Shown one piece after another: positions 3,322-5,388 of a stretch of 64,000 nt of DNA (the stretch's first letter is position 1; every line of letters starts with the position of its first letter). The DNA comes from Candidatus Thorarchaeota archaeon (GTDB lineage: Archaea > Asgardarchaeota > Thorarchaeia > Thorarchaeales > Thorarchaeaceae), in the NCBI GenBank assembly GCA_004524445.1, contig SDNP01000001.1, positions 98,460 to 162,459 on the forward strand, read 5' to 3'. The position numbers and the translations under genes were made by a program. Under the pieces are notes generated by a model, which made no database searches, was not told the origin of the DNA, and worked only from the letters and a program-made list of their open reading frames with translations.

Positions 3322-5388
3322 GTGTTCACTGAGTGTGTTATGATGGAATTCGATATATCAAAAGCTATGAGAGTAAAGTTGTCGGATAAATTACCACCGT
3401 ATCCGAAATTTGACTTGAAATACAGGAGAGCCCCTAACCGGGGATACGACCTTGATTATGACGATACAATTACAGCAGTTAAGAATGCATTAAGGTATGT
3501 GCCTAATAATCTCCAGAGTGAGGTAGCGCCAGAATTCTTGGATGAACTAATGACCCGCGGAAGAATCTATGCATATCGCTACCGTCCTCCTGGAGTAATA
3601 AAGGCGAAGCCAATCGACGAATATGAAGGCATTCTGGAAGCCCGAGCACTGCAACTTATGATTGATAATAATCTAGATTTCGATGTTGCTTTATACCCAT
3701 ATGAGCTGGTAACTTATGGCGAGAGTGGTCAAGTCTGTCAGAATTGGCTTCAGTATCGACTGATCAAGAAGTATCTTGAAGTCATGACTGAAGAGCAAAC
3801 GCTTGTTGTGAGTTCTGGGCATCCAGTAGGCCTATTTCCTTCTCACAGAAATGCTCCCCGAGCAATAACAACGAATGGCCTAATGGTAGGAATGTTTGAC
3901 ACCCCTCAAGATTTTCACAGATCAACTGCCCTCGGCGTCGCGAATTACGGACACATGTCAGCAGCTCGCTGATATGCCGTAGAAATGACCGCCGGAGGTT
4001 GGATGTACATTGGTCCACAGGGGATTGTTCACGGGACCTACATTACCCTGTTGAATGCTGGACGGCTCTACCTTGATATTCCTGCAGACCAAGATCTTGC
4101 TGGCGTACTCTATGTCAGCTCTGGTTTGGGAGGAATGAGTGGTGCCCAGGCAAAGGCAGTGGAGATATCTGGTGGCATTGGTGTAATTGCTGAGGTAGAC
4201 AAGAGCAGAATTAAAACACGCAGTGAACAGAATTGGCTCTCTCTTTGGTCAGATGATTTAGATGAAGTCTTTGAGTGGGTGGACAAACATAGAAAGTCAA
4301 AGAGAGCGGTTTCCATTGGGTATCATGGCAATATTGTAGACGTTTGGCAATATGTGGTGGATAATAACATCAAAGTAGAACTTGCCTCTGACCAGACATC
4401 GTGTCATGCTGCATATGAAGGCGGCTACACACCACAGGGCGTTTCGTTTGAAGAGGGTCGTGAGATACTGAAGAATGATAGAGAGAAGTTCAAGAAATTA
4501 GTGGACGAATCATTGCGTAAGCAATTTGACCTCATAAAGACCATGACGGAACGTGGCACGCACTTCTGGGACTATGGTAATAGCTTCATGAAGGCTGTCT
4601 TCGATGCTGGTGTCAAAGAGATAGCGAAGAACAATGAGAATACTAAGGACGGATTCATCTTCCCGTCATATGTAGAAGACATCATGGGTCCAATCTGTTT
4701 CGACTATGGGTATGGCCCTTTCAGATGGGTTTGTCTGAGTGGGAACCATGATGACTTAATCAAGACGGATGAAGCAGCCATGTCTTGTATTGACCCTGAA
4801 CGAAGAGGTCAGGATCGGGACAATTATGTATGGATTCGTGATGCAGATGAGAATGACCTGGTTGTGGGTTCCGAGGCCCGCATATTGTATGCCGATGCAG
4901 CGGGACGGGCAACCATTGCACTGAAGTTCAATGAACTCGTAAGAAAGGGTGAGATCGGACCTATCATGCTAGGCAGAGACCATCATGACACAGGGGGCAC
5001 AGATTCTCCGTTTCGAGAAACCTCCAACATTTATGACGGAAGTAGAATAACCAGCGATATGGCGCATCAATGTTGGGCAGGCAATGCCGCTCGAGGCATG
5101 ACAATGTGTGTGTTGTCTAATGGTGGCGGTGTAGGAGTCAGCAAGGCAATCAATGGAGGTTTTGGACTGGTTCTTGATGGTTCTGAAAGAGTTGATGACA
5201 TTATCAAATCTGCGATTAATTGGGATGTTATGGGTGGCGTTGCAAGGCGTGCTTGGGCAAGAAATCCACACGCAATAGAAACTTCTATTGATTGGAATAG
5301 TACTGTTGCCACAAAGGGCCAAATCACACTACCCTTCATTCCAGAGGAAGGCCTTATCGAACGACTGGTCAGAGAAAAACTGGACTAA
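3322..5388 (+). CDS. hutU: urocanate hydratase (long, UROC1-like type), two exons: 3322-3952 and 3983-5388
   Basis: N-part has NNLDFDVALYPYELVTYG; C-part has [34 protein letters not shown] and GRDHHD. Both ORFs are in the same frame. Removing 3953-3982 gives ...NYGQMTAGG... and one 678-aa ORF from the GTG at 3322. Confidence 0.93.
3953..3982 (+). other. 30-nt bulge-helix-bulge (tRNA-type) intron in the hutU mRNA
   Basis: Central helix ACGG(3947-50)/CCGT(3977-80); 3-nt bulges ACA(3951-53) and AGA(3981-83); intron stem CATGTCAGC/GCTGATATG (9 bp, one G-U); exon stem ATT/AAT; in-frame TGA at 3970-72 lies inside the insert. Confidence 0.88.

What the first reader, a model, noticed from the sequence alone, without database searches (positions are those of the whole stretch)
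3930..3998. Canonical bulge-helix-bulge intron inside a protein-coding gene (hutU): candidate tRNA-type mRNA splicing in an Asgard archaeon
SEEN: two same-frame ORFs (3322-3972, 3985-5388) are the halves of urocanate hydratase. The junction reads ATT ACGG ACA CATGTCAGC agctc GCTGATATG CCGT AGA AAT. This gives a 4-bp central helix ACGG/CCGT, two 3-nt bulges (ACA, AGA) on opposite strands, a 9-bp intron stem (one G-U) and an exon stem ATT/AAT. The exon stem extends with bulges through GTC/GAC, GGC/GCC and CCT/AGG. KNOWN: the archaeal splicing endonuclease EndA cuts BHB motifs after the second base of each bulge, and RtcB ligates the exons. Applying that rule (cuts after 3952 and 3982) removes 30 nt including the in-frame TGA. 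It yields AAT TAC GGA CAA ATG ACC = NYGQMT, recreating the conserved urocanase YGQMTAG motif, whose Gln codon exists only after splicing. The archaeal mRNA BHB introns I know of are mainly in crenarchaeal cbf5; I know of none in Asgard metabolic genes, but could not check. INFERENCE: a functional non-spliceosomal mRNA intron that pipelines would mis-annotate as a pseudogene.
Basis: partly seen in the sequence, partly recalled or inferred. Interest (0 to 1): 0.96.

Follow-up and report, generated by a model that had tools for sequence, protein, structure and literature searches.

The report
tRNA-type mini-intron in Asgard hutU
The urocanase gene (hutU) of this Thorarchaeota (Asgard) archaeon is interrupted by a 30-base hairpin shaped like the introns archaea cut out of tRNAs, so its mRNA most likely has to be cut and rejoined before the enzyme can be made, something published so far for the coding sequence of only one archaeal gene (cbf5).

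Summary
hutU is split at 3953-3982 by a 30-nt insert with an in-frame TGA, inside the conserved YGQMTAGG motif. The insert can be drawn as helix, 3-nt bulge, 4-bp helix, 3-nt bulge, 9-bp stem.

- An insert sits at exactly this site in 16 alleles (15 distinct): 8 of 77 Thorarchaeota species genomes, one other Asgard family, and 7 metagenome contigs.
- The stem and central helix keep pairing through compensatory changes. The exon Tyr codon TAC/TAT covaries with intron G/A.
- Applying the bulge-helix-bulge cutting rule restores Gly-Gln-Met in all 16 alleles. This includes two 29-nt introns whose exons lie in different frames.
- Two intron-bearing species show dN/dS of about 0.04 at dS of about 0.95, with an identical intron.
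- The genome encodes two EndA paralogs and RtcB, and it carries ~30-nt mini-introns in tRNA and 16S genes.

A second, more relaxed intron site lies 85 codons upstream in three other genomes.

No RNA read bridging the junction was obtained, so splicing itself is inferred. This scan has noted similar mRNA mini-introns in other Asgard genomes, and this same hutU intron in another genome. In print I found only cbf5.

The parts
3322..3952 (+). hutU exon 1. It covers the Urocanase_N domain up to ...Asn-Tyr-Gly plus the first base (C) of the Gln codon. The true start is probably the ATG at 3340 or 3343.
   Evidence: ORF list. Pfam Urocanase_N 1.6e-45. The end aligns to residue 130 of P. putida urocanase 1UWK.
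3953..3982 (+). 30-nt bulge-helix-bulge mini-intron: 1 nt, a 23-nt hairpin, a 4-nt tail complementary to the exon, then 2 nt. It carries an in-frame TGA at 3970-3972.
   Evidence: Absent from about 65 relatives at exactly this point. Present at the same point in 15 other alleles, with covariation.
3983..5388 (+). hutU exon 2. It starts with AA, which completes the Gln codon, followed by ATG ACC... (MTAGGW...). It covers the Urocanase Rossmann-like and C-terminal domains and the stop codon.
3947..3950 (+). Central helix, 5' strand (ACGG). It lies in exon 1 and includes the third base of the Tyr codon.
   Evidence: Pairs with 3977-3980. The pair 3948-3979 occurs as C-G in 7 alleles, U-A in 6 and neither in 2.
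3951..3953 (+). 5' bulge ACA. Predicted cut after 3952.
   Evidence: Unpaired in the minimum-energy folds of the alleles folded. Cutting rule from PMC2738675.
3954..3976 (+). Intron hairpin: 9-bp stem (3954-3962 paired with 3968-3976) and loop AGCUC.
   Evidence: 91% of cells are paired, and 8 of the 9 pairs change on both sides across 15 alleles.
3977..3980 (+). Central helix, 3' strand (CCGU), inside the intron.
3981..3983 (+). 3' bulge AGA. Predicted cut after 3982.
   Evidence: Required by the geometry and by the restored reading frame. In the free-RNA fold it is partly paired.
3928..3946 (+). Exon-1 strand of the outer helices. AUU at 3944-3946 pairs with AAU at 3984-3986. GCC.CUCGGCGUC at 3928-3939 pairs with 3987-3999.
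   Evidence: Minimum-energy fold. Intron-bearing alleles form 9.6 of 11 outer pairs, against 6.8 of 11 in intron-less alleles.
3984..3999 (+). Exon-2 strand of the outer helices.

Best explanation
The 30 nt at 3953-3982 are a genuine intron of the archaeal bulge-helix-bulge (tRNA-type) kind, sitting inside the hutU coding sequence of a Thorarchaeota archaeon.

Proposed mechanism:
1. In the pre-mRNA, the end of exon 1 pairs with the start of exon 2 (outer helix) and with the intron's 3' tail (4-bp central helix ACGG/CCGU).
2. The rest of the intron forms a 9-bp hairpin.
3. This presents two 3-nt bulges, four base pairs apart, to the heterotetrameric (alpha-beta)2 splicing endonuclease EndA.
4. 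EndA cuts after the second base of each bulge, that is after 3952 and after 3982.
5. RtcB joins the exons. This creates the Gln codon C|AA and an mRNA for a full-length urocanase of about 678 aa with the YGQMTAGG motif.
6. Unspliced RNA yields only a ~210-aa N-terminal fragment, because every allele carries a stop in the intron.

The element belongs to the same stereotyped ~30-nt mini-intron class that fills this genome's tRNA and 16S rRNA genes.

What is shown: the anatomy, structural conservation with covariation, exact frame restoration, purifying selection on the gene, and presence of the enzymes. What is inferred: the cleavage and ligation themselves, and the fate of the excised intron (probably circularised).
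For: 1. Same-site inserts occur in 8 of 77 hutU-bearing Thorarchaeota species genomes from 5 genera, in one genome of another Asgard family, and in 7 metagenome or MAG contigs.

2. Across 15 distinct alleles:
- 88.8% of the proposed pairs form, against 30-49% when the partners are slid.
- 10 pairs show changes on both sides.
- 40 cells carry compensatory changes, against 13.5 +/- 3.6 in shuffles (0 of 500 shuffles reach the observed value).
- The synonymous third base of the exon Tyr codon covaries with an intron base (C-G in 7, U-A in 6).

3. The cutting rule restores GGA-CA(A/G)-ATG, i.e. Gly-Gln-Met, in 16 of 16 alleles. These include two 29-nt introns and one 38-nt intron, where exon 1 and exon 2 are out of frame. 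Read without splicing, that codon gives Gln in 8 alleles, His in 4 and Leu in 4.

4. For G000 against G001, both intron-bearing, dN/dS is 0.048 for exon 1 and 0.036 for exon 2 at dS of about 0.95. The 30-nt intron is identical between them.

5. The genome has two EndA-family genes and RtcB. Asgard EndA is reported as the (alpha-beta)2 type with the broad-specificity loop (PMC5829648).

6. ARAGORN predicts introns in 22 of 38 tRNA genes, many 30-35 nt long. The 16S gene has a 30-nt insert of the same architecture between model positions 854 and 855, plus further inserts.

7. hutH (8664-10223) and hutI (about 14348-15481) are intact and close by.

8. The insert is present in DNA from an independent study.
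Against: - No RNA evidence for the spliced junction. The metatranscriptome contigs that match this strain at 99% or better cover both exons but not 3648-4131. The two RNA contigs with an uninterrupted junction come from relatives about 90% identical, which may simply lack the intron.
- In the predicted free-RNA ensemble, the 3' bulge and the AUU/AAU helix are not the favoured conformer.
- Several alleles have only 2-3 of the 4 central pairs.
- Exon 2 happens to begin with an ATG, the conserved Met, so separate translation cannot be excluded from this site alone.
Confidence: 0.85

Rival explanations
1. Split gene. The insert is never removed. The two ORFs are translated separately, as an N-terminal fragment of about 210-216 aa and a 467-aa fragment starting at the conserved Met, and the two pieces assemble into an active urocanase.
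For: Exon 2 starts with ATG at 3985. Gene callers annotate two genes. Purifying selection on both halves is also expected under this model. The 29-nt alleles are compatible with it too.
Against: - It does not explain conserved bulge-helix-bulge geometry with compensatory changes, including covariation between an exon synonymous site and the intron.
- The C-terminal tails of the exon-1 ORF are not conserved as peptides: HMSAAR, QVLAAR, LR, HW, LA, L and others.
- The universally conserved Gln becomes His or Leu in half of the alleles unless the RNA is spliced.
- The ATG lies inside the exon-exon helix, and I saw no Shine-Dalgarno-like sequence upstream of it (reading).
- The second intron site has no start codon at or near the exon-2 boundary in 2 of 3 genomes.
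Confidence: 0.07
2. Dead gene. The insert is an inert insertion, such as a small palindromic or MITE-like element, that inactivated hutU, and the two halves are decaying.
For: There is an in-frame stop. The distribution among relatives is patchy, with at least 7 state changes on the exon-1 tree. One metagenome contig (L161) has exon 1 and an intron-like start followed by unrelated DNA.
Against: - dN/dS is about 0.04 in both halves over dS of about 0.95 between two intron-bearing species.
- Apart from the intron, exon 1 is an uninterrupted frame in the nine genome alleles, and exon 2 is uninterrupted in the eight family genomes checked.
- The intron is conserved 30 of 30 between G000 and G001, and it evolves by compensatory changes elsewhere.
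- No other copy of the element exists in the genome.
- hutH and hutI are intact.
Confidence: 0.03
3. Translational recoding. The ribosome reads through the stop, or hops over the insert as in T4 gene 60 bypassing.
For: A hairpin follows a GGA codon and a stop lies nearby, which superficially resembles gene 60. At the second site in one genome (L042), GGA occurs on both sides of the insert.
Against: - At site 1 there is no matching take-off and landing codon, and no Gln codon exists unless the RNA is cut and rejoined.
- All three stop codons occur among the alleles, and G278 has two stops.
- The 29-nt and 38-nt alleles shift the frame.
- Read-through would insert 10 unconserved residues into an active-site motif.
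Confidence: 0.02

Closest known systems
cbf5 (pseudouridine synthase) pre-mRNA intron of Crenarchaeota (Watanabe 2002; Yoshinari 2006; Yokobori 2009, PMC2738675)
   Same: - A short ORF-less intron inside a coding sequence.
- It interrupts a codon in a conserved catalytic motif.
- It has a BHB or relaxed BHB structure with cuts between the 2nd and 3rd bulge nucleotides.
- The host has a hetero-oligomeric EndA.
- Its distribution is patchy, implying gain and loss.
- Annotation pipelines call it a broken gene.
   Different: - A different gene: a catabolic enzyme rather than an RNA-modification enzyme.
- A different phylum: Asgard/Thorarchaeota.
- hutU has two alternative intron sites.
- The intron has a stereotyped ~30-nt architecture shared with the host's tRNA and rRNA mini-introns.
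- cbf5 splicing was shown by cDNA and in vitro cleavage. Here splicing is only inferred.
Archaeal tRNA and rRNA BHB introns (Marck and Grosjean 2003; Asgard tRNA introns, bioRxiv 10.64898/2026.10.13.758758)
   Same: Same motif, same presumed enzymes (EndA, RtcB) and same size class. This genome has 22 intron-bearing tRNA genes, and 30-nt inserts in 16S built in the same way.
   Different: The substrate is an mRNA, so removal must be exact to the nucleotide to keep the reading frame. The outer helix is made of two coding segments, and synonymous sites in it appear constrained.
BHB intron in the 5' UTR of Haloferax volcanii HVO_1309 (Schwarz et al. 2020, PMC7714728)
   Same: An EndA substrate within an mRNA.
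   Different: The Haloferax intron lies in the untranslated leader and does not interrupt the protein code.
HAC1/XBP1 unconventional mRNA splicing in eukaryotes (Ire1 cleavage, tRNA-ligase/RtcB joining)
   Same: Non-spliceosomal cutting of an mRNA at stem-loop sites, followed by exon joining with a tRNA-type ligase. The reading frame downstream depends on splicing.
   Different: The endonuclease (Ire1) and the motif are different, and that system is a regulated stress response. No regulation is shown here.

Membership tests
Archaeal bulge-helix-bulge (EndA/RtcB) intron | Two 3-nt bulges on opposite strands separated by a 4-bp helix | tested here: met
   ACGG/CCGU lies between ACA and AGA. Among the 16 alleles, the central helix has 4 of 4 pairs in 8, 3 of 4 in 6 and 2 of 4 in 2. 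Caveat: the free-RNA minimum-energy fold extends the helix by 1-2 pairs into the 3' bulge, so the motif counts as relaxed (HBh'-like) by thermodynamic prediction.
Archaeal bulge-helix-bulge (EndA/RtcB) intron | Flanking helices on both sides (h on the exon side, h' on the intron side) | tested here: met
   h' is a 9-bp stem, 91% paired, with 8 of 9 pairs changing on both sides. h is AUU/(A/G)AU, 100% paired, plus an extended exon-exon helix that is 85% paired.
Archaeal bulge-helix-bulge (EndA/RtcB) intron | Cuts after the 2nd base of each bulge give the correct mature sequence | tested here: met
   The rule restores the conserved NYGQMTAGG in 16 of 16 alleles, including the 29-nt and 38-nt introns. 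The rule is taken from PMC2738675.
Archaeal bulge-helix-bulge (EndA/RtcB) intron | Host encodes the splicing endonuclease and RtcB ligase | tested here: met
   PF01974 matches twice (110.5 and 78 bits) and PF01139 once (600.9 bits) in the same genome.
Archaeal bulge-helix-bulge (EndA/RtcB) intron | The insert is present in DNA but absent from mature RNA (spliced junction, circular intron) | tested here: inconclusive
   DNA presence is shown in an independent run. RNA contigs cover both exons but none from this strain bridges the junction.
Group I / group II self-splicing introns | Ribozyme core of hundreds of nucleotides | tested here: not met
   The insert is 29-38 nt. No Rfam family matches 3700-4250 at E<=1.
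Programmed translational bypass (T4 gene 60 type) | Matching take-off and landing codons flanking the skipped segment | tested here: not met
   No matching codons occur at site 1, and the Gln codon does not exist in unspliced RNA.
Intein or stop-codon recoding | An in-frame insert that can be translated through | tested here: not met
   Stops of all three kinds occur, two alleles are 29 nt and one is 38 nt.

The most novel reading that the evidence does not exclude
The hutU introns are one visible tip of an active, protein-free mini-intron system in Asgard archaea. In this reading, ~30-nt hairpin introns colonise tRNA, rRNA and also mRNA targets that offer a short exon sequence able to pair with the intron tail.

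The two hutU sites share the context UUACGGA(C/G)A at a Tyr-Gly codon pair, and they share the loop sequences AUUCU and AUUUC. This suggests transposition of an intron from one site to the other, for example by reversal of the EndA/RtcB reaction followed by copying into DNA. EndA-dependent mRNA splicing would then be a regular, possibly regulatory, layer of gene expression in the closest prokaryotic relatives of eukaryotes.
Probability: 0.3. Interest if true: 0.88.

Novelty: new member of a known kind. Interest (0 to 1): 0.74.

Why it matters
In the papers I could search, exactly one archaeal coding sequence (cbf5, Crenarchaeota) was reported as spliced by the tRNA machinery, and a 2020 paper still says so. 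A second gene family has several consequences:
- It lies in a metabolic pathway and in the Asgard lineage, and it has two intron sites, many alleles, and clear gain and loss.
- mRNA splicing by EndA and RtcB would therefore not be a one-gene curiosity.
- Standard annotation systematically miscalls such genes as broken or as two genes. Here the calls are Urocanase_N plus Urocanase.
- The case gives a concrete, testable substrate for studying how introns enter protein genes in the prokaryotic relatives of eukaryotes.
- Histidine catabolism in these organisms would depend on the tRNA-splicing enzymes.

Tried and rejected
1. RNA evidence. One run search and one read laying were allowed. Salt-lake metatranscriptome contigs match both exons at 99% or better, but none bridges 3648-4131. 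Two uninterrupted junction contigs come from relatives about 90% identical and cannot be assigned to spliced RNA or to an intron-less gene. There is no verdict on splicing.

2. A pattern scan of the metagenome contig collection for the intron with its flanks gave 19 hits, all chance and none in hutU.

3. Genome-wide search for further mRNA introns in this genome:
- A strict motif scan gave 24,251 motifs, of which 735 bridge two open frames.
- A relaxed scan gave 11,004 candidates.
- The best other candidates looked like ordinary adjacent genes by their translated termini (C35, C53, C52, C57) or were false hits inside an intact gene (H+-pyrophosphatase on C9).
- The strict scan did not recover the tRNA introns, so its sensitivity is low and this is not evidence of absence.

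5. No paralogous copy of the intron sequence exists in the genome.

6. No Rfam family matches the region.

7. G052 hutU (L040) has a plain frameshift without an insert, so it is not an intron.

8. Contigs of G054 (AB_25) and G020 begin at CAAATGAC, right at the junction. This may reflect strain heterogeneity, but nothing can be concluded.

9. Assembly artefact is rejected. The insert appears in an independent DNA run and in many independent assemblies.
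Full report
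OBSERVATION

Window 3925-4000 reads exactly as described. Two same-frame ORFs, 3322-3972 and 3985-5388, match Pfam Urocanase_N and Urocanase plus Urocanase_C. Intact relatives read ...[19 protein letters not shown]... without interruption. This gene therefore carries 30 extra nucleotides, at 3953-3982 or equally 3954-3983. They include an in-frame TGA at 3970-3972 and split the Gln codon that corresponds to Gln131 of Pseudomonas putida urocanase.

The RNA folds strongly: -33.7 kcal/mol, z = -4.5, and none of 200 shuffles folds as well. The fold contains:
- a 9-bp stem, 3954-3962 with 3968-3976
- a 3-nt 5' bulge, 3951-3953
- a central helix, ACGG/CCGU
- a long exon-exon helix, 3928-3939 with 3987-3999

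An independent DNA study holds a 908-nt contig across 3490-4397 without gaps. The insert is therefore not an assembly artefact.

One nuance matters. ViennaRNA extends the central helix by U3946-A3981 and U3945-G3982, so the strictly canonical conformer (3' bulge AGA plus helix AUU/AAU) is 5.5 kcal/mol less stable than the minimum-energy fold. As free RNA the motif behaves as a relaxed (HBh'-like) bulge-helix-bulge.

ORGANISM AND MACHINERY

The window is contig C24 of a 2.79-Mb, 64-contig genome that is 90% complete. Relatives' record titles name Candidatus Thorarchaeota. The genome encodes two EndA-family proteins and one RtcB. This fits the (alpha-beta)2 endonuclease with the broad-specificity L1 loop reported for Asgard archaea (PMC5829648).

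ARAGORN finds introns in 22 of 38 tRNA genes, many of them 30-35 nt. The 16S rRNA gene (C9:95406-96992) carries a 30-nt insert between Rfam model positions 854 and 855. That insert is built the same way: 1 nt, hairpin, 4-nt exon-complementary tail, 2 nt. About 53 further extra nucleotides lie near model position 1300. The enzymes therefore already have many substrates of this architecture in the same cell.

COMPARATIVE EVIDENCE

Among 86 species genomes of the family, 77 have hutU. Eight have an insert at exactly this site: G000 and G001 (genus g1), G008 (g8), G096 (g12), G049 and G050 (g7), and G079 and G080 (g2). In a sample of 400 Asgard genomes, 210 have a hutU match. Among the matches listed (65 were not shown), only one genome outside the family carries the insert, G278 of family f9.

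I then searched the protein collection for proteins the length of exon 1. About 35 distinct clusters among the top 120 hits end at NYG plus a short unconserved tail. Many lie on long contigs, up to 1 Mb, so they are not cut off by contig ends. In five of the nine looked up, the next called gene carries Urocanase and Urocanase_C, and a sixth is followed by a short, unsearched ORF.

Seven of these contigs gave further intron sequences. Every allele has this layout:
- A1: AUU
- C1: A(C/U)GG
- bulge: AC(A/U)
- a hairpin
- C2: a 4-nt tail
- bulge: NNA
- A2: (A/G)AU

Intron lengths are 30 nt (13 alleles), 29 nt (2) and 38 nt (1).

On the 15 distinct 29-30-nt alleles:
- 88.8% of the proposed pairs form, against 30-49% when the 3' partners are slid by 1-3 columns.
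- Ten pairs change on both sides.
- 40 cells carry compensatory changes, against 13.5 +/- 3.6 in shuffles (0 of 500 shuffles reach the observed value).
- In the stem, 8 of 9 pairs covary.
- In the central helix, the third base of the exon Tyr codon (TAC/TAT) covaries with an intron base: C-G in 7, U-A in 6, neither in 2.

These sequences are related, so the shuffle figures overstate independence. The slid controls and the number of pair types do not depend on that.

Applying the published rule (cut between the 2nd and 3rd bulge nucleotide; PMC2738675) restores GGA-CA(A/G)-ATG, i.e. Gly-Gln-Met, in all 16 alleles. This includes the 29-nt and 38-nt introns, whose exons lie in different frames. 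Read without splicing, the codon after Gly gives Gln in 8 alleles, His in 4 and Leu in 4. The invariant Gln is guaranteed only by splicing.

All 30-nt alleles carry an in-frame stop, with TGA, TAA and TAG all represented, which rules out recoding.

SELECTION

G000 and G001 both carry the intron. They differ at dS of about 0.95, with dN/dS of 0.048 in exon 1 and 0.036 in exon 2. The 30-nt intron is identical between them. The gene has thus been kept functional while carrying the insert, and the insert is itself constrained.

Intron-bearing alleles also share the synonymous choices GCC CUC GGC GUC upstream. These place C opposite fixed G's of exon 2. They form 9.6 of 11 outer-helix pairs, against 6.8 of 11 in intron-less alleles and 7.3 in intron-less alleles with the same ALGV peptide.

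hutH (8664-10223) and hutI (about 14348-15481, minus strand) are intact in the same neighbourhood.

EVOLUTION

On an exon-1 tree, which is poorly resolved, the intron state needs at least 7 changes. The f9 intron-bearing gene groups with an intron-less f9 gene. Intron sequences track the host gene: g1 and g12 share CAUNUCAGC...GCUGANAUG. Within g12, one of three species has the intron. This points to vertical descent with frequent precise loss, with some transfer possible, much as argued for cbf5.

SECOND SITE

Three other genomes carry a 31-32-nt insert 85 codons upstream, between TAC GGA G and AG AGT (V-T-Y-G-E|S-G-Q). They are G002 (L018), G053 (L042) and G101 (L041). Again the insert shifts the frame.
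- The 5' context, UUACGGAGA, is nearly the same as at site 1, UUACGGACA.
- The loops AUUCU and AUUUC recur at both sites.
- The central helix is weaker: ACGG against CCGG, CCGG or ACGG.
- No start codon is available for a separate downstream product in two of the three genomes.

This argues against the split-gene rival and hints at transposition of an intron between sites. I regard that as a lead, not a result.

RIVALS
- Split gene: about 7%.
- Dead gene or inert insertion: about 3%.
- Read-through or bypass: about 2%.
- Assembly artefact: below 1%.

The reasons are given in the Rival explanations section. The main weakness of the preferred reading is the lack of RNA data. Metatranscriptome contigs match both exons of this strain at 99% or better, but none bridges the junction.

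WHAT IS KNOWN

In the searchable literature, cbf5 of Crenarchaeota remains the only archaeal coding sequence with a BHB intron (PMC7714728 in 2020; the same three references are still cited in 2025). Haloferax HVO_1309 has one in its 5' UTR. A 2026 preprint on Asgard introns deals with tRNA genes only. No paper pairs urocanate hydratase with an archaeal intron.

Within this scan, earlier notes report comparable mini-introns in other Asgard protein genes (ahcY, tfb, PFK, iolM, EF-2, queE, hypD) and this same hutU intron in another genome. Those are unchecked AI notes. I re-derived the hutU allele independently, confirmed the 16S insert, and found ahcY intact in this genome.

My own scans found no second convincing mRNA intron in this genome, but they were insensitive.

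VERDICT

This is a real feature. It is very probably an EndA/RtcB-spliced mRNA intron, and it is a new member, in a new gene and a new phylum, of a kind known from a single published case.

Noticed in passing
L041:643-674 (+), L042:348-378 (-), L018:3132-3163 (-): A second intron site in hutU, 85 codons upstream of the first, between TAC GGA G and AG AGT. It occurs in three other Thorarchaeota genomes (G101, G053, G002). The inserts are 31-32 nt and shift the frame. They are BHB-like with a weak central helix, and they share the 5' context UUACGGA and the loop sequences of site-1 introns.
   Followed up: partly
G000:C9:95406-96992 (L154:1501-3087); 30-nt insert at L154 about 2375-2404: The only 16S rRNA gene found carries a 30-nt hairpin insert between Rfam model positions 854 and 855, inside the universal ...GACUGAA|ACUUAAAGGAAUUGGCGG motif. 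About 53 more extra bases lie near model position 1300. The architecture matches the hutU intron.
   Followed up: partly
whole genome G000: ARAGORN predicts introns in 22 of 38 tRNA genes, many of them 30-35 nt. The tRNA-Gly(GCC) intron on C40 ends in CCGTAGAA, the same 8-mer as the 3' end of the hutU intron. That match may be chance.
   Followed up: partly
window 8664-10223 (+) and about 14348-15481 (-): hutH (histidine ammonia-lyase) and hutI (imidazolonepropionase) are intact near hutU, so the histidine-degradation pathway appears to be maintained.
   Followed up: yes
window 3968-3972 and the same place in other alleles: Every 30-nt allele keeps a stop codon (UGA, UAA or UAG) in the exon-1 frame. 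In most alleles it lies at the start of the 3' strand of the hairpin. Unspliced RNA can therefore never give a full-length protein with a 10-residue insertion. Whether this is selected, or a by-product of the conserved stem, is open.
   Followed up: no
L161:1004-1075: One MAG contig (GCA_016840245.1) has hutU exon 1 and an intron-like start, followed by unrelated DNA and a gene on the opposite strand. This is either a rearrangement at the intron or a chimeric contig.
   Followed up: no
L040 (G052:C15), about 60 codons upstream of the junction: hutU of G052 changes frame within GHPVGLFP|SHKNAP without any insert. This is a plain frameshift or a sequencing error, not an intron.
   Followed up: partly
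L046:1-10 and L022 (minus strand) start: Contigs of two other Thorarchaeota assemblies (AB_25 and G020) begin at CAAATGACAGC, exactly at the intron site. This might reflect populations mixed for intron presence.
   Followed up: no
window 5417-6073 (-): An endonuclease V gene lies directly downstream of hutU on the opposite strand. A CN-hydrolase gene follows at 6244-7155. I see no link to the intron.
   Followed up: no
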